From: Acidimicrobiia bacterium | GTDB lineage: Bacteria; Actinomycetota; Acidimicrobiia; Spongiisociales; ZC4RG35 | Direction: 5' to 3' | DNA: 64,000 nt | NCBI GenBank assembly: GCA_035461175.1 | Contig: DATHVR010000030.1 | Span: 9,392-73,391 of the forward strand | Part shown: in pieces, positions 4,075 through 49,855 of the stretch | Layout: each line of letters opens with the position of its first letter | Position numbering within the stretch: position 1 is the stretch's first letter | Program-made: the position numbers and the translations under genes | The notes under the pieces: model-generated | The model's input: only the letters and a program-made list of their open reading frames with translations | What the model was told of the DNA's origin: nothing | Databases searched by the model: none

Positions 4075-4674
4075 TCAGAAGTCGATGCGCATCACCGATC
4101 GGCGCTTGGTCGGCCGACTCACCTCGGTGAGGCCGGCAGCCAGGAAGGTGGCCGGGGTGCCGACGTGGAGTTCCTCGTCGATCACGTTCTTGGTGGTAGT
4201 CGGGTAGGCCTCCAGGGCTCGCACCCCCTGTGCGCGGGCGAAGTCGACCGCGGCCCTGGCCATGGTCCGGCTGATTCCTTGCTTGCGGTAACCGGCGCGG
4301 GTGAAGAGACAGGTCACCGCCCAGACGCTGTCGTCTTGCTTGTCCTCGTCCCGGCCTTCCCAGGGGACCCGGAAGACGCGCACCAGGCCGGTATATGCCG
4401 GGCGTGGCTCCACCGCGCACCATCCGACCGGTTCGCCGTTGAGGTAGGCGACGAGGCCGCTGGTGGTGTCGGAGTCGGGGTTGTCGCAGTCGGTCTGCTC
4501 ACGGAGCCGAAAGGCGCGCTCTTCTCTGGGGACGGATCCGAACGACTCCCGCGGCGCCAGTTTGTAGCGCTGGCACTGGCAGACGTGGCCCGTCCCACGA
4601 GAGCCGAATATCGCCTGCAGGTCTTCACACGCAGCTCGGTTGGCGGGGACGATCGAGAGGTCGCGGTCGGTCAT
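4075..4674 (-). CDS. GNAT family N-acetyltransferase (paralog of the upstream gene)
   Basis: RKQGISRTMARAAVDFARAQG parallels the adjacent GNAT gene. Confidence 0.7.
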   Translation of the reverse strand: MTDRDLSIVPANRAACEDLQAIFGSRGTGHVCQCQRYKLAPRESFGSVPREERAFRLREQTDCDNPDSDTTSGLVAYLNGEPVGWCAVEPRPAYTGLVRVFRVPWEGRDEDKQDDSVWAVTCLFTRAGYRKQGISRTMARAAVDFARAQGVRALEAYPTTTKNVIDEELHVGTPATFLAAGLTEVSRPTKRRSVMRIDF

Positions 4675-4991
4675 GCTGTGATTCTGGCCGCGGTTGCGGA
4701 CGGGTCGTGTCCTATTTCAGGAGGCACCTTGCGGGGCTCCGACCGAGGCGAGAGTGCAGGTGAACGCGTCTGGGGCGGTTGGTTGCACTTTCGTCGGGGT
4801 GAGGGTGACGAGTGAGCAGGCGCCCGCGCTCAGCGCGGTGCGATGCCCTCTCGTCGGGCCACCTTGGCGGCGGGCGTCGAATCGTCGACGACTCCGGAGC
4901 CCCCGCGGCGTGGATCCTGGCCGATCGGGCCGGCAATCGCGTGTGCATCGCTGCCTGGCCCGACGGGGCACCATCACCCGACGCCGCGGAC

Positions 4992-17982: not shown

Positions 17983-18336
17983 ATGAGCCAGTACCTACTG
18001 TCGGTATGGGGTGACCCGGCCGAGCTGGAGCAGGTTCCGCCCGAAATGATGGAACAGGCATACGCCGACGTCGACAAGTTCAACACCAAGTTGCAGGACC
18101 AGGGGGCGTGGGTCTTCGCCGGTGGCCTCCACACCCCCGACACCGCCACGGTGGTCCGTAAGGGTGAGGACGGGGAGGTGCTGGTCACCGACGGCCCCTT
18201 CGCCGAGGCGAAAGAACAGATCGGCGGCTTCTGGATCATCGAGGCCGAAGACCTGGACGCCGCCCTGGCGTGGGCTCGCGAGGCGACCGTGGCCTGCCAG
18301 GCCCCGGTGGAGGTGCGCCCGTTCCAGGAAGAGTGA
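17983..18336 (+). CDS. YciI-like (DGPF domain) protein
   Basis: MSQYLLSVWGDP…GGFWIIEAEDLDAALAWA is the classic YCII-related domain sequence. Confidence 0.8.
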   Translation: MSQYLLSVWGDPAELEQVPPEMMEQAYADVDKFNTKLQDQGAWVFAGGLHTPDTATVVRKGEDGEVLVTDGPFAEAKEQIGGFWIIEAEDLDAALAWAREATVACQAPVEVRPFQEE

Positions 18337-18344
18337 ACTGAGGT

Positions 18345-19562
18345 ATGCCCGGCTTCGACGCGACCCAGATCGAAGCGGTTTTCCGGGAGGAGTCGGGACG
18401 GGCGGTGGCGATCCTGGCCCGCCGATGCGGCGACATATCCCTCGCCGAGGAGGCGGTCCAGGACGCCTTCGCCGAGGCCGTTGAGCGCTGGCCACGATCG
18501 GGAATCCCGCCCAGTCCGGCCGGATGGATCATCACCACGGCGCGCAACCGCGCCATCGACCGGATCCGGCGGGAATCCACCCGAGAGTCGCGTCAGGCCG
18601 AGGCGGCCCTCCTGTTGGGCCCAGAAGACGAAAGCGACTCCGGCCCGATGATCGACGATCGGCTTCGGCTGCTGTTCACGTGCTGCCACCCGGCGCTGTC
18701 TTCGGAGGCGCGGGTGGCCCTCACCCTGCGGCTCCTGGGAGGGCTGCAGACACCGGAGATCGCCCGGGCTTTCCTGGTCCCCGAGTCCACTATGGCCCAG
18801 CGCCTGGTGCGGGCGAAGAAGAAGATCCGGGCCGCCAACATCCCCTACCGGGTCCCGGACGAGGCCGAACTCCCCGACCGATTGGTGGCGGTCCTCGCCG
18901 TCGTCTACCTGATCTCCAACGAGGGCCACATCGCCACCTCCGGGGAGGAGCTCACCCGTGACGATCTCGCCGCCGAAGCGATTCGGCTGGGTCGGTTGCT
19001 GGTCGAGTTGATGCCCGACGAGCCGGAAGCGGTCGGTCTGCTGGCGCTGATGCTTCTGACCCAGGCCCGTCGTCCGGCGCGGGTAAGCGATGACGGCACT
19101 CTGGTGGCGCTGGCCGACCAGAAGCGATCGTTGTGGGACCGGAAGATGATCGCCGAGGCCCACGCCCTGGTCCGGGCCTGCCTCCGACGCAACCATCCCG
19201 GTCCGTATCAGATCCAGGCGGCCATCGCCGCCGTGCATGCCGACGCCCGCTCGGCCGGGGCGACCGATTGGGGGCAGATCGTGTCCCTCTACGACCAGCT
19301 GCTGGTATTCAGCGACTCGCCGGTGGTCAGGCTCAATCGCGCCGTGGCCGTGGCCGAGTTGGATGGCCCGGAGCCGGCCTTGGCCGCGCTCGACCCGCTC
19401 CCTCTCGATCGCTACCACCTCTACCACGCCACCAGGGCCTCCTTGCTCGAGCGATTGGGCCGCCAGCGGGAGGCCGCCGCGGCGTACTCGCGGGCGCTGG
19501 AGCTCACCACCAATCAGGCCGAGATCGACCATCTCGAGCAGAAACGAAGCCGGTTGGTCTAG
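18345..19562 (+). CDS. ECF-type RNA polymerase sigma-70 factor with long C-terminal extension (YciI-associated type)
   Basis: Sigma-70 regions 2 and 4 ([11 protein letters not shown]; [15 protein letters not shown]) are followed by an extension of about 230 aa. It starts 9 nt after the YciI-like gene. Confidence 0.85.
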
Positions 19563-25777: not shown

Positions 25778-26776
25778 ATGCTGACTCGTGTCCTTGCCGT
25801 GCTCGTTGTCGCCATCCTGGCGGCTGGGTGCGGAGACGACGGCGCCGGCTCTTCGTCATCCCTGCCTTCCGCCACCGGTCCCACGCCGACGGTGGGAACG
25901 CCCCCGACTATGGGGACGCCTTCATCCCCGACAACCTCCTCTGCGGCGCCTCCCTCGACTGTGGCTTCGACCACCGCCCCCGCCGACCTGCAGGGGGCGG
26001 CCCAGGCCGCGTTCGAGGAGTGGGTGGGGATGCTGGCGGCCGGCGACCACCAGGGTGCCTGGGAGGCGATGGCCCCCACCTCGCGGGCGGCGGTGGGCGA
26101 GAATCTCTTCTTCGACAGCATGGTGTACGAGATGGCGGAGGGCTGGGGTTCGTGGTCGACGGGCGAAGACACCACCTACCGACTCGAGACCGACGAGAAC
26201 GGTCGCGTCCTGCTCTGGGTGAGCGGCACCATCAGCCCCGAGGGGATGACCGAGACCAGGGAGGTGGCGGTTCCCGTGGTCGAGACCGACTCCGGGCTGC
26301 TGGTGTCCCCGTTCGAGGAGTTCGGCAACGTGGCCGAGGCGGTAGACGAGGAGATCTCCGGGAGTGCCGCCCCCGCCGTGCCCGCCGACTCGGGGGAGGG
26401 TCGCCGGGTGGTGTACTCCAACTCCGACCAGCGGGTGTGGCTCATGGCCGAGGACGGCTCGGTGGTGGACTCGTACCTCGTCTCGGGCAAGGCGGGCGTG
26501 CCCGCCCCCGGCACCTACGAGGTCTACTCCCGCTCCGAGGTCGCCTACGCCGGCCACGACGACATCACCATGCGCTACATGGTCCGCTTCGCCCACGGCG
26601 AGAACCTCCCGATCGGTTTCCATTCCATCCCTAACGACGGCAACGGCGCCCCCCTGCAGTCCGAGGAGCAGCTGGGCGAGTACCACAGCGCCGGCTGTGT
26701 CCGCCAGAGCCTGGGCCACGCCGCTTTCCTCTACGACTGGGCGGTGGAAGGAACCACGGTCGTGGTGCTCGCATGA
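25778..26776 (+). CDS. Lipoprotein with C-terminal L,D-transpeptidase (YkuD) catalytic domain
   Basis: Lipobox LAAGCG, a Pro/Thr/Ser-rich linker, and C-terminal GFHSIP…YHSAGCVRQ (catalytic His/Cys). Confidence 0.7.
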   Translation: MLTRVLAVLVVAILAAGCGDDGAGSSSSLPSATGPTPTVGTPPTMGTPSSPTTSSAAPPSTVASTTAPADLQGAAQAAFEEWVGMLAAGDHQGAWEAMAPTSRAAVGENLFFDSMVYEMAEGWGSWSTGEDTTYRLETDENGRVLLWVSGTISPEGMTETREVAVPVVETDSGLLVSPFEEFGNVAEAVDEEISGSAAPAVPADSGEGRRVVYSNSDQRVWLMAEDGSVVDSYLVSGKAGVPAPGTYEVYSRSEVAYAGHDDITMRYMVRFAHGENLPIGFHSIPNDGNGAPLQSEEQLGEYHSAGCVRQSLGHAAFLYDWAVEGTTVVVLA

Positions 26777-26784
26777 CCACCAAG

Positions 26785-26890
26785 GTGCAGATACGCCCCG
26801 TCATGGGGGGCAATTGCACGTTGGATTGGAGACGGACCCGGTGTTGCTGACCGACGTGCAGATACGGCCCGTCACGGTGGGTAACTGCCC
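26785..26890. promoter_or_regulatory. Two tandem 35-bp dyad-containing repeats (period 71 bp) upstream of the Nfo-PolDom gene; candidate operator
   Basis: Copy 1 (26785..26819) is GTGCAgatacgCCCCgtcatGGGGggcaatTGCAC. Copy 2 (26856..26890) is GTGCAgatacggCCCgtcacggtGGGtaacTGCCC. Confidence 0.4.
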
Positions 26891-26925
26891 GTCGGTTTCG
26901 CCGGCGAGGTACGTACTCTTCCGGC

Positions 26926-28722
26926 ATGATCACGGTTGGGATCTCCCAGCTTCCTCCCGACGGCGTCTCCGACGCCGGTTTTCTCGACGATTTGGTCGAA
27001 CAGGGGTTCAACGCCCTGGAGCTTCCCTTCGTCACCGACTTTCCCTGGAAGGAGAAGCGGTGCGCCGAGTTCGGGAAGGTGGCGGCCGAACGCGGGATCC
27101 GGCTGTCCGTTCACGCCCCCTATTTCGCCACCCTGACACCCGAGGATGCCGAGCGTGGAGCCCAGTGCCTGGCGGCGCTGGAGCACACGATGAAGCTGGG
27201 GATGGCACTGGGGGCCCCGATCATCGTCGCCCACGGCGGCTCTACCCACGGTGAACCGGCCGAGGTGCTTTTAGACCGGATCTCGGAGCGGCTGGAACGG
27301 GTGGCCCCCAAGGTCGAGAATCTGGGGGTGGGATTGGGGCTGGAGACGGCGGGAAAGGAAGGGGCGTGGGGGACCCTGGGCGACATCGCCCTCGCCGCCG
27401 CCCGGTTTTCGTTCGTGCGTCCCGTGGTGGACTGGGCCCACCTCCATGCCGCCACCGGGGGCGGCCTCACCTCCCGGGAGGCTTTCGCCCAAGTCTTCGC
27501 CTTTTTGGGGTCGGAATTCCCGGGCTGGATAATCGACCCGCTCCACTGCCACTTCACCGACAATCTGGTCGGCCCCAAGGGAGAGGTGAAGCACCTCCCC
27601 TACGGGGACGGGACCCTGCGGGTGGGGCCGCTCGTGGAGGCGGCCCAGGAGGCGGGAACCAGCCTCAATCTGGTGTCGGAAGCGCGCGAGAGGGAGAGTC
27701 ACCAGGAGATCCTGGCCGAGATCCGTGCCACCGAGCAGAAGCGGGAGACGGCCGACACCTCCCGGCCGCTGGGATCGGGTCGGGTGGATTTCCCTGCTCC
27801 GATCCGGGCCGAGCGGGAAGCCGATCGCTACCGGCCCCGCACCGCCTCGCCGCTCACCCTCTCCAACCTCGATAAGCCGTTCTTCCCCGAGGGTTACACC
27901 AAGGGCGACCTGATCCAGTACTACGCCTCAGTAGCCGACGTGCTCCTTCCCCACCTCGCCGGTCGCCCGCTCTCCATGTCCCGCTACCCCGACGGGATCG
28001 GCGGCCCCCAGTTCTATGAGAAGCGGGCTCCCGGCCACCAACCCGACTGGATGCCCACCACTCCGGTTCCCTCCGACTCCCAGGGGGGTCAGATCGAGTT
28101 CATGCTGGCCGATCGGCGTGAGGCGCTGATGTGGTTCGCCAACATGGGCTGTGTCGAGGTCCATCCCTTCCATTCCCGGGCGGGGTCGCTCGAGACCCCC
28201 GACTACGCCATCTTCGACCTCGACCCCGCCGAGGGCGCCGAATGGGAGCAGGTGGTGGCGGGTGCTCACCTTATCCATGTGGCGCTGGGTCAACTGGGGA
28301 TGGTCGGGGTGCCGAAGCTGTCCGGAAGCAGGGGAATCCACGTCTACGTGCCGATCGAGGCCCGCTTCGGCTACGAGCGGGTGCGGCGGTTCGTGGGCGA
28401 GGTGGGCCGCTACCTGGTGGCGGCCAATCCCGACGACCTGACGATGAAATGGGACAAGCCGAAGCGGCGGGGGAAGGTGTTCATCGACCACAACCGCAAC
28501 GCCTCGGGCCAGACGATCGCCTCCGTGTACTCGGTGCGTCCCCGACCCGGTGCACCGGTGTCAGTCCCGATGCGCTGGGACGAGGTGGCGGCCATGCGCA
28601 ACGGCGACATCACCATCGCCAACCTGTGGGAGCGCCTCCAGCGCCATGGAGACCTCTTCGCCCCGATCCTGGGTCCCAGGCACCCCCTGGAGCCCGCCGA
28701 GGAGGCGCTGGGTCTGTCATGA
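26926..28722 (+). CDS. Fusion protein: Endonuclease IV (Nfo, AP endonuclease family 2) TIM-barrel domain + LigD-type NHEJ primase-polymerase (PolDom) domain
   Basis: Residues 1-280 carry the Nfo metal-site pattern (HAPYF, HGGS, LETAG, VDWAHLHA, HCHFTDN, LVSE). Residues about 300-598 carry LigD Pol motifs (LSNLDKPFFPEGYTKGDLIQYY, FDLDP, SGSRGIHVYV, KVFIDHNRNASGQTIASVYSVRP). It is a single uninterrupted ORF. Confidence 0.8.
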   Translation: MITVGISQLPPDGVSDAGFLDDLVEQGFNALELPFVTDFPWKEKRCAEFGKVAAERGIRLSVHAPYFATLTPEDAERGAQCLAALEHTMKLGMALGAPIIVAHGGSTHGEPAEVLLDRISERLERVAPKVENLGVGLGLETAGKEGAWGTLGDIALAAARFSFVRPVVDWAHLHAATGGGLTSREAFAQVFAFLGSEFPGWIIDPLHCHFTDNLVGPKGEVKHLPYGDGTLRVGPLVEAAQEAGTSLNLVSEARERESHQEILAEIRATEQKRETADTSRPLGSGRVDFPAPIRAEREADRYRPRTASPLTLSNLDKPFFPEGYTKGDLIQYYASVADVLLPHLAGRPLSMSRYPDGIGGPQFYEKRAPGHQPDWMPTTPVPSDSQGGQIEFMLADRREALMWFANMGCVEVHPFHSRAGSLETPDYAIFDLDPAEGAEWEQVVAGAHLIHVALGQLGMVGVPKLSGSRGIHVYVPIEARFGYERVRRFVGEVGRYLVAANPDDLTMKWDKPKRRGKVFIDHNRNASGQTIASVYSVRPRPGAPVSVPMRWDEVAAMRNGDITIANLWERLQRHGDLFAPILGPRHPLEPAEEALGLS

Positions 28723-33122: not shown

Positions 33123-33170
33123 GTTTTCGCGACAGAATTGCGCGCCATAGCGCGCAATTCTGTCGCGAGA
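33123..33170. repeat. Interspersed palindromic repeat, family A copy 1 (about 48 bp near-perfect palindrome; candidate bidirectional terminator)
   Basis: ttttcgcgacagaattgcgcgccatagcgcgcaattctgtcgcgagaa. Copy 2 is at 49383..49430. It lies between convergent gnd and desaturase stops. Confidence 0.65.
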
Positions 33171-33220
33171 ATCCTTCTGGACCTCCGTCCTCCGTCCTCC
33201 GACCTCTGACCTCTGACCTG

Positions 33221-49382: not shown

Positions 49383-49430
49383 TTTTCGCGACAGAATTGC
49401 GCGCCATGGCGCGCAATTCATGCGCGAAAA
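49383..49430. repeat. Interspersed palindromic repeat, family A copy 2
   Basis: ttttcgcgacagaattgcgcgccatggcgcgcaattcatgcgcgaaaa. It overlaps the last 3 codons of the minus-strand DUF385 gene. Confidence 0.65.
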
Positions 49431-49855
49431 CGGTGGGGGTCGGCCTCGTCCATGCGGAGGAACTCGGTCACGTTGGCGAGGCGGAGGATGGGTCGGGCGG
49501 CTGCCGGCATGTGGGCCATTCCTTCCTCGGTCGAGACGAGCCGGGGATTGTCGAGGTGGACCTCCTGGCTCCGGCGTCGGATGGTGCAGGTACCGGCTGC
49601 CATCACGTTCTTGACCCAGTCGGCGTCGGATCCGTAGGTGAGGGCGAACATGAATCCGTGCTCGGCCTCTAAGACATTCAGGGGGATGGCGTACTCCCGG
49701 CCCGTTCGGCGACCGGAGTGCCTGAGTATGCAGAAGCCCGGCGCCCATCCGGCGAAGAGCCGGACGATGGGGTTGGTGACGTAACGGTTGAACCGTGCGA
49801 TGGCCCGGGGAATCGGCACAGCCTGATTATCGACCCATGACCCAGAACTCACCAC
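49418..49855 (-). CDS. Deazaflavin (F420H2)-dependent nitroreductase family protein (DUF385)
   Basis: ARFNRYVTNPIVRLFAGWAPGF…HSGRRTGREYAIPL is characteristic of the family. Confidence 0.75.
   Translation of the reverse strand: MVSSGSWVDNQAVPIPRAIARFNRYVTNPIVRLFAGWAPGFCILRHSGRRTGREYAIPLNVLEAEHGFMFALTYGSDADWVKNVMAAGTCTIRRRSQEVHLDNPRLVSTEEGMAHMPAAARPILRLANVTEFLRMDEADPHRFRA

What the first reader, a model, noticed from the sequence alone, without database searches (positions are those of the whole stretch)
26785..26890. Two tandem dyad-symmetric 35-bp repeats immediately upstream of the Nfo-PolDom gene
Copies at 26785-26819 and 26856-26890 (period 71 bp) each contain nested inverted repeats (GTGCA…TGCAC around CCCC-N5-GGGG). 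They sit in the 150-bp gap before the fusion gene. This looks like a two-site operator for a dimeric repressor, possibly damage-responsive. It does not match the Cheo box, the mycobacterial SOS box or the RecA-NDp motif.
Basis: seen in the sequence. Interest (0 to 1): 0.55.

Follow-up and report, generated by a model that had tools for sequence, protein, structure and literature searches.

The report
Dispersed palindromes tied to an AbiEi-like nuclease
The two repeats are real, but they are two copies of a 49-bp palindrome family scattered through Acidimicrobiia genomes that always brackets a gene for an AbiEi-like DNA-binding nuclease, so they are probably that protein's binding sites and not a DNA-damage switch for the repair gene beside them.

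Summary
There are two 49-nt dyads, at 26778-26826 and 26849-26897. Each has 23-nt arms and the core GTGCA-N25-TGCAC. They are 80% identical and lie 71 bp apart, filling the gap between the YkuD stop codon and a leaderless-type promoter of the AP-endonuclease/LigD-Prim-Pol gene.

They are not specific to repair genes. A model built only from copies found in other genomes picks out exactly three sites in the 64-kb window: these two and a third at 4747-4795, upstream of a GNAT acetyltransferase gene.

In four divergent Acidimicrobiia contigs the same palindromes bracket a gene for an AbiEi-like protein fused to a Vsr/I-Bth0305I-type nuclease, with 1 to 4 tandem copies on each side. AbiEi and Rv2827c are known to bind one or two tandem pairs of 23-bp inverted repeats, which is the same layout.

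Orthologous Nfo-PolDom promoters carry one or two copies in close relatives (83% or more protein identity). More distant relatives carry none. The third copy is lineage-specific. Copies sit at the edges of strain-variable segments.

Best reading: solo binding sites of an AbiEi-like nuclease, spreading in a REP-like way. The proximal copy covers the -35 position and could repress the gene. Nothing supports damage responsiveness.

The parts
26778..26826 (.). Palindrome copy 1 (rep1). A 49-nt dyad with core GTGCAG-N24-TGCAC at 26785-26819. It starts 2 nt after the YkuD stop codon.
   Evidence: Family model R1 scores it 43.6 bits. The independent model R2, built without any window-clade sequence, scores it 24.4 bits, E about 8e-6. 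DNA fold z = -4.0.
26827..26848 (.). 22-nt spacer between the two copies. It is unrelated to the 22 nt that follow copy 2, but it can be aligned with the inter-copy spacer of L086/L087.
   Evidence: Alignment score 7.5 against a shuffled mean of -3.5, with 0 of 2000 shuffles reaching it; the aligned stretch (26820-26855) also includes the outer arm ends, which inflates the score.
26849..26897 (.). Palindrome copy 2 (rep2), the copy orthologous to the single copy in L081-L085. Its right outer arm (GTCGGTT, 26891-26897) occupies the -35 position of the downstream promoter.
   Evidence: R1 scores it 50.6 bits and R2 29.4 bits, E about 1e-7. The interior GTCACGGTGGGTAACTGC matches 17 of 18 bases with L211 copy u2, GTCACGGTGGGTCACTGC.
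26914..26919 (+). -10-like hexamer TACTCT (TANNNT type), 6 nt before the ATG. This implies a leaderless transcript.
   Evidence: TANNNT ends 6-9 nt before the start codon in 10 of 14 orthologous loci with a clear start, against 0.4% of random positions. The transcription start is inferred, not measured.
26926..28722 (+). Downstream gene: a fusion of an AP_endonuc_2 (Nfo-like TIM barrel) domain and a LigD Prim-Pol domain, 598 aa.
   Evidence: Pfam: PF01261 1.2e-27 and PF21686 1.7e-89. The fusion is widespread in Acidimicrobiia.
25778..26776 (+). Upstream gene: a YkuD L,D-transpeptidase lipoprotein. Together with rep1 it forms a roughly 1064-bp segment (25780-26843) that is absent from the closest relative L081. 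The segment is bounded by the 7-bp direct repeat TGCTGAC (25779-25785 and 26845-26851).
   Evidence: Pfam. blastn of L081 against the window. Junction sequences.
4747..4795 (.). Third family member in the window (core 4754-4788). It lies in the gap upstream of the minus-strand GNAT gene 4075-4674 and is not conserved in close relatives.
   Evidence: Exact core match. R1 scores it 24 bits, E 1.5e-4, and it was not in the training set. R2 scores it 26.8 bits, E about 1e-6. It is absent from the orthologous gaps L219-L226.

Best explanation
Each repeat is a 49-bp DNA dyad: two 23-nt arms around a 1-3-nt centre, with the invariant core GTGCA-N25-TGCAC. The dyads belong to a low-copy palindrome family dispersed in Acidimicrobiia genomes.

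The family's constant partner is a gene for a protein made of an AbiEi-like DNA-binding module (winged helix plus the AbiEi C-terminal domain) fused to a Vsr/I-Bth0305I-type nuclease (Pfam AbiEi_4 + DUF559). That gene is bracketed on both sides by one, two or up to four tandem copies.

AbiEi binds a pair of 23-bp inverted repeats, and Rv2827c binds two tandem pairs. By analogy, the palindromes are most likely the sites recognised by this protein (inferred).

The two window copies are solo sites: no such gene lies within the 64 kb. They fill the gap between the YkuD stop codon and the leaderless-type promoter of the Nfo-PolDom gene. The proximal copy's outer arm lies on the -35 position. If the protein is made elsewhere in this genome, its binding would hinder transcription initiation (inferred, not shown).

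The copies behave more like a REP-like duplicating element than a dedicated operator. They are lineage-specific, vary in number (1-2 here, 1-4 elsewhere) and sit at the edges of segments that differ between close strains.
For: Family membership:
- 23 copies from 11 contigs align without gaps over 49 columns, with GTG..GC.C invariant.
- Dyad covariation is strong: 80% of cells paired against 66% in shuffles, 70 double-change cells against 28, and at most 47% paired when the partners are slid.
- Model R2, built only from the 14 copies that flank AbiEi_4/DUF559 genes, finds exactly rep2 (29.4 bits), 4747-4795 (26.8 bits) and rep1 (24.4 bits) in the window. The next hit scores 12 bits.

Association with the protein:
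- Palindromes lie on both sides of the gene in L078 (4 + 2), L107 (1 + 1), L203 (2 + 2) and L211 (2 + 2).
- These proteins are only 46-67% identical to each other.

Nature of the protein:
- Pfam gives AbiEi_4 at 5.7e-10 plus DUF559/REase_MTES_1575.
- The AF2 model has pLDDT 90.6.
- Top PDB matches are AbiEi 6y8q (E 6e-7) and Rv2827c 1zel (E 5e-5). The C-terminal domain matches 3hrl and the I-Bth0305I nuclease 3r3p (TM-score normalised to the target 0.74-0.79).
- Nuclease-type residues are invariant in 36 homologues.

Layout precedent: AbiEi binds two 23-bp inverted repeats 3 bp apart, and Rv2827c binds two tandem pairs within -1 to -131 (PMC7319586).

DNA-level rather than RNA-level symmetry: G:T and A:C mismatches number 27 and 22.

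Position:
- The element lies 28-29 nt from the ATG in five lineages, while the gap upstream of it diverges.
- A -10-like hexamer sits 6 nt before the ATG.
Against: - No binding experiment exists.
- No AbiEi_4/DUF559 gene lies in the 64-kb window (tblastn), and I could not scan the rest of the genome.
- The arm sequences share nothing with the AbiEi or Rv2827c repeats.
- I could not show that arm sequence covaries with the protein subfamily.
- Upstream of the AbiEi-like genes the palindromes end 42-44 nt before the ATG. That is beside the -35, not over it, which is an odd place for a repressor.
- One of the two copies has been lost in three related lineages, so a two-site mechanism is not essential.
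- In the window clade the interiors keep hairpin potential and are followed by 2-4 T, which also fits a terminator.
Confidence: 0.55

Rival explanations
1. A REP/MIRU-like selfish or structural palindrome with no specific regulatory role. It spreads by duplication and recombination, varies in tandem copy number and only happens to lie next to the Nfo-PolDom promoter. At most it insulates the promoter from upstream transcription.
For: - Tandem copy number varies: 1 copy (L081-L085) against 2 (window, L086/87), and 1 (L075, L077) against 4 + 2 (L078).
- The third window copy lies in a gap segment that has been replaced in relatives with 92% identical GNAT.
- L075, L077 and L078 are about 95% identical up to the palindrome and unrelated after it.
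- The YkuD + rep1 indel lies directly beside rep2.
- Copies start 2-3 nt after the preceding stop codon, or overlap it.
- The same window holds a second, unrelated family of about 47-nt palindromes.
Against: - Density is low: three independent loci in about 0.6 Mb sampled.
- No RAYT-type transposase is associated.
- The consistent bracketing of one particular DNA-binding nuclease gene in four divergent genomes asks for a specific protein partner.
- The arms are conserved while the flanking gap sequence diverges.
Confidence: 0.2
2. Intrinsic terminators or RNA hairpins. The dyads are transcribed as the 3' ends of the YkuD mRNA or the mRNA of the 92-aa upstream gene, and stop or stabilise those transcripts before the next promoter.
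For: - The hairpins are stable (RNA fold of the gap -71.7 kcal/mol, z = -2.4; consensus hairpin).
- rep1 begins 2 nt after the YkuD stop.
- In the window clade the right arm is followed by TTT or TTTT.
- In L083-L085 the element is the only hairpin after the 92-aa gene.
Against: - The terminator scan does not call them.
- L081, L082 and the window already have a canonical terminator after the 92-aa gene.
- Copies in L078, L203 and L211 have no T-run, and the L078 copies have a 23-nt non-pairing interior.
- G:U and A:C mismatches number 27 and 22, so there is no strand bias.
- No Rfam family matches.
Confidence: 0.1
3. One reading: a dedicated two-site operator of a dimeric, DNA-damage-responsive repressor that controls the Nfo-PolDom repair gene and other repair genes.
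For: - Two dyads lie next to, and partly over, the promoter of a repair-type gene.
- The proximal site keeps its position in five related lineages.
Against: - The element is absent from all Nfo-PolDom orthologues at 79% identity or less, including those with the same YkuD neighbour.
- Other family members lie next to GNAT, AbiEi-like, Cys/Met-PLP and a HisA-like/glyoxalase-like fusion, none of which is a recognised repair gene.
- No LexA or PafBC-type motif lies in the gap.
- The one SOS-like box, at 26996-27011, is inside the gene and is not conserved.
- The second site is dispensable.
Confidence: 0.05

Closest known systems
AbiEi / Rv2827c inverted-repeat operators (type IV AbiE toxin-antitoxin systems; Hampton 2018, Beck 2020, PMC7319586)
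   Same: The layout is the same: about 23-bp arms in inverted orientation with a short gap, present as one pair or two tandem pairs within about 130-150 bp upstream of a start codon and next to or over the promoter. The gene that the palindromes flank in other genomes encodes a protein whose best structural matches are AbiEi (6y8q) and Rv2827c (1zel).
   Different: - The repeat sequences show no similarity.
- The associated protein carries an extra Vsr-like nuclease domain and has no AbiEii (DUF1814) toxin partner.
- Palindromes also lie downstream of that gene and as solo copies elsewhere.
- The window copies precede a repair gene, not an AbiEi gene.
REP elements and their RAYT transposases (REPtrons), and BIME clusters
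   Same: Short imperfect palindromes in intergenic DNA, often in tandem clusters. Some copies bracket a gene for a DNA-cleaving protein and other copies are scattered alone. Copy number varies between strains.
   Different: - The bracketed protein is an AbiEi-like winged helix plus a PD-(D/E)XK/Vsr-like nuclease, not a Y1 HUH transposase.
- There is no conserved GTAG tetranucleotide.
- The copies flanking the gene are in the same orientation, not inverted.
- Density is far lower in the DNA sampled.
Free-standing homing endonucleases with a Vsr-like (EDxHD, I-Bth0305I-type) catalytic domain
   Same: The nuclease domain of the associated protein matches I-Bth0305I (3r3p, TM-score normalised to the target 0.79). 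The gene lies in intergenic DNA between conserved genes, shows presence/absence between near-identical strains (L078 against L075 and L077) and coincides with a break in synteny.
   Different: No cleavage, target site or homing has been shown. The gene keeps the same neighbours (glnA, Trans_reg_C, gene, Cys/Met PLP enzyme) in three genomes at about 50% protein identity, which points to long residence rather than recent mobility.
MIRU-type intergenic minisatellites of mycobacteria (from my own knowledge)
   Same: Units of 50-70 bp in tandem within intergenic regions. Copy number differs between close strains and the number of loci per genome is low.
   Different: MIRUs are not defined by a long dyad and have no known dedicated protein gene bracketed by them.

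Membership tests
AbiEi-type inverted-repeat operator | Two inverted repeats of about 23 bp separated by a short gap (3 bp for AbiEi, 13 bp for Rv2827c). | tested here: met
   The arms are 23 nt with a 1-nt gap in rep2. The 49-column gapless family alignment shows dyad covariation. The reference layout comes from PMC7319586.
AbiEi-type inverted-repeat operator | Lies in the promoter of the AbiEi gene itself, giving negative autoregulation. | tested here: not met
   In the window the downstream gene is Nfo-PolDom, and no AbiEi_4/DUF559 homologue lies in the 64 kb. The feature is met for other family copies, upstream of the AbiEi-like genes in L078, L107, L203 and L211.
AbiEi-type inverted-repeat operator | Bound sequence-specifically by an AbiEi-family winged-helix protein. 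| not testable with these tools
   This needs EMSA or footprinting. The only evidence here is genomic association plus the fold of the associated protein.
AbiEi-type inverted-repeat operator | Part of an AbiEi-AbiEii (DUF1814 nucleotidyltransferase) toxin-antitoxin pair. | tested here: not met
   The neighbours of the AbiEi-like genes are glnA, Trans_reg_C, Cys_Met_Meta_PP and a methyltransferase. No DUF1814 gene is present.
REP / RAYT (REPtron) | Imperfect palindromes in intergenic DNA, commonly clustered in tandem. | tested here: met
   Clusters occur in the window (2), L086 (2), L203 and L211 (2 + 2) and L078 (4 + 2). All lie between genes.
REP / RAYT (REPtron) | Tens to hundreds of copies per genome. 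| tested here: inconclusive
   Three independent loci were found in about 0.6 Mb of sampled Acidimicrobiia DNA.
REP / RAYT (REPtron) | An associated Y1 (HUH, IS200/IS605-like) RAYT gene flanked by inverted REPs, with a conserved GTAG/CTAC next to the hairpin. | tested here: not met
   The flanked gene is AbiEi-like plus a Vsr-like nuclease. The flanking copies score best in the same orientation. No GTAG column appears in the alignment.
Intrinsic (rho-independent) terminator | A G+C-rich stem with a short loop, directly followed by a U-run, working as RNA on one strand. | tested here: not met
   The terminator scan does not call the dyads. T-runs of 2-4 occur only in the window clade. G:U and A:C mismatches number 27 and 22.
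LexA SOS box / PafBC RecA-NDp promoter motif | TCGAAC-N4-GTTCGA, or TGTCRGTG-N8-TANNNT, in the promoter region. | tested here: not met
   Neither motif is in 26777-26925, at up to 3 and up to 2 mismatches respectively. The 1-mismatch SOS-like hit at 26996-27011 lies in the coding sequence and is not conserved in orthologues.
Known structured RNA (Rfam) | A score at or above a family's gathering threshold. | tested here: not met
   There are no matches in the window at gathering thresholds. Only chance-level hits (E > 3) appear at 26600-27100.

The most novel reading that the evidence does not exclude
The palindromes are the recognition and cleavage sites of a so far undescribed kind of selfish or domesticated system. 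In it, an AbiEi-type DNA-binding module fused to a homing-endonuclease-type (Vsr/I-Bth0305I) nuclease acts on 49-bp dyads. This would drive their duplication, the scattering of solo copies into intergenic DNA, and gene gain or loss next to them (the YkuD indel; the synteny break in L075/L077/L078). It would be a functional analogue of REP/RAYT built from unrelated parts.
Probability: 0.22. Interest if true: 0.7.

Novelty: new variant of a known kind. Interest (0 to 1): 0.48.

Why it matters
AbiEi_4+DUF559 proteins are numerous in Actinomycetota and have no assigned role. I found no paper that mentions the two domains together.

Linking them to a defined 49-bp palindrome gives a directly testable DNA target for binding and cleavage assays. 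It also gives a candidate explanation for small-scale variation in gene content in uncultured Acidimicrobiia.

For the repair gene itself the message is cautionary. The conspicuous dyads beside it are not evidence of a new DNA-damage regulon.

Tried and rejected
- **Rfam:** nothing at gathering thresholds, and nothing meaningful with permissive E-values.
- **A 71-bp tandem duplication of operator plus promoter:** rejected. Only the 49-nt units are similar, and the 22-nt tails match at about 5 of 22 positions (read).
- **A riboswitch or attenuator in a 5' leader:** rejected. The sequence upstream of the element is not conserved between L081, L082 and L083, and the promoter is of the leaderless type.
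- **An RNA hairpin on the sense strand:** an early count on 7 copies suggested more G:U than A:C mismatches. The bias vanished with 23 copies (27 against 22).
- **Pattern scan of genome contigs** (GACGTGCAG-N24-TGCMCGTC): the pattern was too permissive. It yielded one true member (L107) and did not recover the source genome, so no regulon-wide count was possible.
- **Relatives of the AbiEi-like protein elsewhere:** none in viral contigs and none in plasmids.
- **Covariation of arm sequence with protein subfamily:** not demonstrable. The four proteins are all about 46-67% identical to one another.
- **Short contigs as a sign of assembly breaks at the repeats:** rejected. The contigs extend about 90-126 nt past the palindromes.
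- **A LexA box:** the 1-mismatch hit at 26996-27011 is a by-product of the codons and is not conserved.
- **Exact look-up of the window's Nfo-PolDom protein:** not on record. The source contig is nevertheless in the collection, through the GNAT protein P0241.

Full report
**What is in the sequence.** The 149-nt gap between the stop codon of a YkuD L,D-transpeptidase gene (25778-26776) and the ATG of a 598-aa AP_endonuc_2 + LigD Prim-Pol fusion (26926-28722; Pfam) holds two related units. These are 26779-26827 and 26850-26898: 49 nt each, 80% identical, 71 bp apart. Each unit is a dyad of two 23-nt arms; in copy 2 the arms are 78% complementary with 1 nt between them. The shared 22-mer never appears in 100 shuffles of the window. 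As single strands the units fold better than shuffles, with z = -4.0 and -3.1. Only the 49-nt units are alike. The 22 nt that follow each unit are unrelated, so this is not a plain 71-bp tandem duplication.

**The organism and the promoter.** Homologues of the fusion protein come from Acidimicrobiia MAGs and metagenomes. A GNAT protein of the window is 100% identical to one on a 94.8-kb NCBI contig named 'MAG TPA: Acidimicrobiia bacterium'. The hexamer TACTCT (26914-26919) lies 6 nt before the ATG. A TANNNT hexamer ends 6-9 nt before the start codon in 10 of 14 orthologous loci with a clear start, against 0.4% of random positions. The gene is therefore most likely transcribed as a leaderless mRNA (inferred). 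On that reading the outer right arm of copy 2 (GTCGGTT, 26891-26897) occupies the -35 position.

**Orthologous loci.** Loci encoding Nfo-PolDom proteins 96%, 88% and 84% identical to the window's (L081, L082, L083-L085) carry one copy of the element. It ends 28-29 nt before the ATG, as copy 2 does. L086 and L087 (83%) carry two tandem copies 67 bp apart. Their inter-copy spacer can be aligned with the window's, so the two-copy state is probably ancestral and one copy was lost in three lineages. The arms (GACGTGCAG...TGCACGTCGGTT) and the promoter are conserved, while the gap sequence upstream of the element is not. Eighty more distant orthologous loci (79% identity or less) have no copy. These include L002, L003 and L005, where YkuD lies directly upstream with a 40-50-nt gap. 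Compared with L081, the window has an extra 1064-bp segment (25780-26843) made of YkuD plus copy 1. The segment is bounded by a 7-bp direct repeat, TGCTGAC. I cannot tell whether this is an insertion here or a microhomology deletion in L081.

**The element belongs to a wider family.**
- The geometry GTGCAG-N24-TGCAC recurs in other Acidimicrobiia contigs.
- L078 has four near-identical tandem copies (51-bp period) upstream and two downstream of a gene whose product has AbiEi_4 and DUF559/REase_MTES_1575 domains.
- The near-identical strains L075 and L077 have a single copy at the same spot and lack that gene. The three contigs are about 95% identical up to the palindrome and unrelated after it.
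- L107 was the one true hit of an otherwise noisy genome-collection scan. It has a copy about 44 nt upstream and another just downstream of a homologous gene, 50% identical.
- Two further homologues, P0209 and P0177, were fetched with their flanks as L203 and L211. Both lie in the order glnA, Trans_reg_C, gene, Cys/Met PLP enzyme. Each has two tandem copies upstream and two downstream, 59-60 bp apart.

**How well the family is defined.** In all, 23 copies align without a single gap over 49 columns, with GTG..GC.C invariant. The interior of window copy 2 (GTCACGGTGGGTAACTGC) matches L211 copy u2 (GTCACGGTGGGTCACTGC) at 17 of 18 positions. Dyad covariation is strong: 80% of cells are paired against 66% in shuffles, at most 47% when partners are slid, and 70 cells show changes on both sides against 28.

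**An independent membership test.** I built a covariance model from only the 14 copies that flank AbiEi_4/DUF559 genes, leaving out the window and its clade. Over the whole window with filters off, it finds exactly three places: copy 2 (29.4 bits, E about 1e-7), 4747-4795 (26.8 bits) and copy 1 (24.4 bits). The next hit scores 12 bits. The site at 4747-4795 lies upstream of a minus-strand GNAT gene. It is missing from the orthologous gaps of relatives whose GNAT is 92% and 84% identical, where a different sequence fills the space between conserved flanks. No further copy exists in 525 kb of Nfo-PolDom neighbourhoods. The family is therefore low-copy, and its solo members are lineage-specific.

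**The partner protein.** An AlphaFold2 model of a close homologue (P0121; pLDDT 90.6) best matches the AbiEi antitoxin of S. agalactiae (6y8q, E 6e-7) and Rv2827c (1zel, E 5e-5) over about 200 residues. Its C-terminal domain matches a DUF559 protein (3hrl), the catalytic domain of the homing endonuclease I-Bth0305I (3r3p, TM-score normalised to the target 0.79) and Vsr. Acidic and histidine residues of the nuclease motif are invariant in 36 homologues (D237, E248, D250 and H255). No AbiEii toxin gene is adjacent, so this is not a type IV toxin-antitoxin pair. The literature gives the layout precedent. AbiEi binds two 23-bp inverted repeats 3 bp apart. The Rv2827c promoter has two tandem pairs of 23-bp repeats within -1 to -131, and all are bound (PMC7319586). 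Rv1044, which Pfam classes as AbiEi_4, is also a sequence-specific DNA binder. The repeat sequences themselves show no resemblance to ours.

**DNA site or RNA hairpin?** Across the 23 copies the non-Watson-Crick cells split 27 G:T against 22 A:C, so neither strand is favoured. The L078-type copies have a conserved interior that does not pair. Most copies lack a T-run. The terminator scan does not call the dyads. The window, L081 and L082 already have a canonical terminator after the 92-aa gene upstream. Rfam has nothing. The symmetry is therefore best read as a property of the DNA. The compensatory changes in the arms (GAC..GTC to GGC..GCC in L083, and CCGAC..GTCGG to CCAAG..GTTGG in copy 1) fit either a protein that reads both arms or an extruded hairpin. 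They do not decide between the two.

**Most likely mechanism.** Shown:
- the two repeats are members of a dispersed palindrome family;
- that family brackets AbiEi-like nuclease genes in four divergent genomes;
- the layout equals that of known AbiEi-family operators;
- the proximal copy sits on the -35 position of a leaderless-type promoter and keeps that position in five lineages.

Inferred:
- the AbiEi-like protein binds the palindromes;
- the window's genome encodes such a protein elsewhere;
- binding would reduce Nfo-PolDom transcription.

Three features are more typical of a REP-like duplicating element than of a dedicated operator: variable copy number, lineage-specific solo copies, and position at the edges of strain-variable segments (the YkuD indel, the replaced GNAT gap, the L075/L077/L078 break). 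The two views are compatible if the protein both binds the sites and occasionally acts on them.

**What is not supported.** Nothing indicates damage responsiveness or a repair regulon. No SOS box or RecA-NDp motif lies in the gap. The SOS-like box at 26996-27011 lies inside the gene and is not conserved. The other family members are next to unrelated genes. The genes around the locus are housekeeping and include no AbiEi_4 protein.

**Limits.** I could not scan the whole source genome. Copy number per genome and the presence of the partner gene in this organism therefore remain unknown. E-values from the shortened model calibration are rough. No binding, cleavage or transcript data exist.

**Verdict.** The 'two-site operator' picture is plausible in form, as an AbiEi-type layout, but 'damage-responsive repair operator' is not supported. 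The feature is best filed as a new variant of known kinds: AbiEi-type inverted-repeat sites that behave like REP elements. Interest is moderate, mainly because it gives an uncharacterised protein family (AbiEi_4+DUF559) a concrete DNA target.

Noticed in passing
window 33125-33171 and 49383-49431; L082 3372-3420: A second, unrelated family of about 47-nt near-perfect palindromes (TTTTCGCGACAGAATTGCGCGC-CAT-GCGCGCAATTCTGTCGCGAGAA). It is flanked by T-runs on both strands, like a bidirectional terminator. It occurs twice in the window and at a non-orthologous place in a relative. It has the same arm-plus-3-nt-centre layout as the main family and shares CGCAATTCTG with the L078 copies.
   Followed up: partly
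window 25780-26843: A 1064-bp segment (the YkuD gene plus palindrome copy 1) is present in the window but absent from the closest relative L081. It is bounded by the 7-bp direct repeat TGCTGAC, and the left junction falls exactly on the YkuD start codon. More distant relatives (L002, L003, L005) also have YkuD directly upstream of Nfo-PolDom, so the direction of the event is unclear.
   Followed up: partly
L078 6024-7277; L075 5926-5974; L077 5927-5975: Three strains that are about 95% identical lose all similarity exactly after the palindrome. L078 carries 4 + 2 copies around an AbiEi_4/DUF559 gene. L075 and L077 carry one copy and different downstream genes.
   Followed up: partly
L203 1350-2530; L211 1350-2523; L107 6683-7744: AbiEi_4+DUF559 genes keep the neighbourhood glnA, Trans_reg_C, gene, Cys/Met PLP enzyme in three genomes at about 50% protein identity. 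They have no AbiEii toxin partner, and their fold is AbiEi plus an I-Bth0305I/Vsr-like nuclease. The function is unknown, and I found no paper that mentions both domains.
   Followed up: partly
window 26996-27011: TCGAACAGGGGTTCAA matches the actinobacterial LexA box with one mismatch, 70 nt inside the Nfo-PolDom gene. It arises from the codons V-E-Q-G-F-N and is not kept in orthologues.
   Followed up: yes
window 26901-26908; L081 1604-1611; L082 3976-3983: The spacer between the -35 position and the -10-like hexamer holds a self-complementary 8-mer that differs between lineages: CGCCGGCG in the window and CGGCGCCG in L081 and L082. This could be chance in G+C-rich DNA or a small second site.
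   Followed up: no
L004 about 2880-2975 (upstream of its Nfo-PolDom gene): Three tandem copies of an approximately 33-nt G-rich unit (gggcggtgggtggggtcgggtggcgcggagtcg) lie in the gap before a 78%-identical orthologue. This is another example of repeat expansion in front of this gene.
   Followed up: no
window 17983-19562; L082 1792-3362: A YCII-domain gene followed by an ECF-type sigma factor with a DUF6596 extension lies 7 kb upstream in the window. In L082-L084 the same pair lies directly before the 92-aa membrane protein gene that precedes Nfo-PolDom.
   Followed up: no
L025, L028, L034, L062 (100-150 nt upstream of their Nfo-PolDom genes): Sequences that look like a tRNA gene on the opposite strand (gggtccc...gaatcgaaccc...) lie just upstream of several distant orthologues. 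I read this by eye and did not check it with ARAGORN.
   Followed up: no
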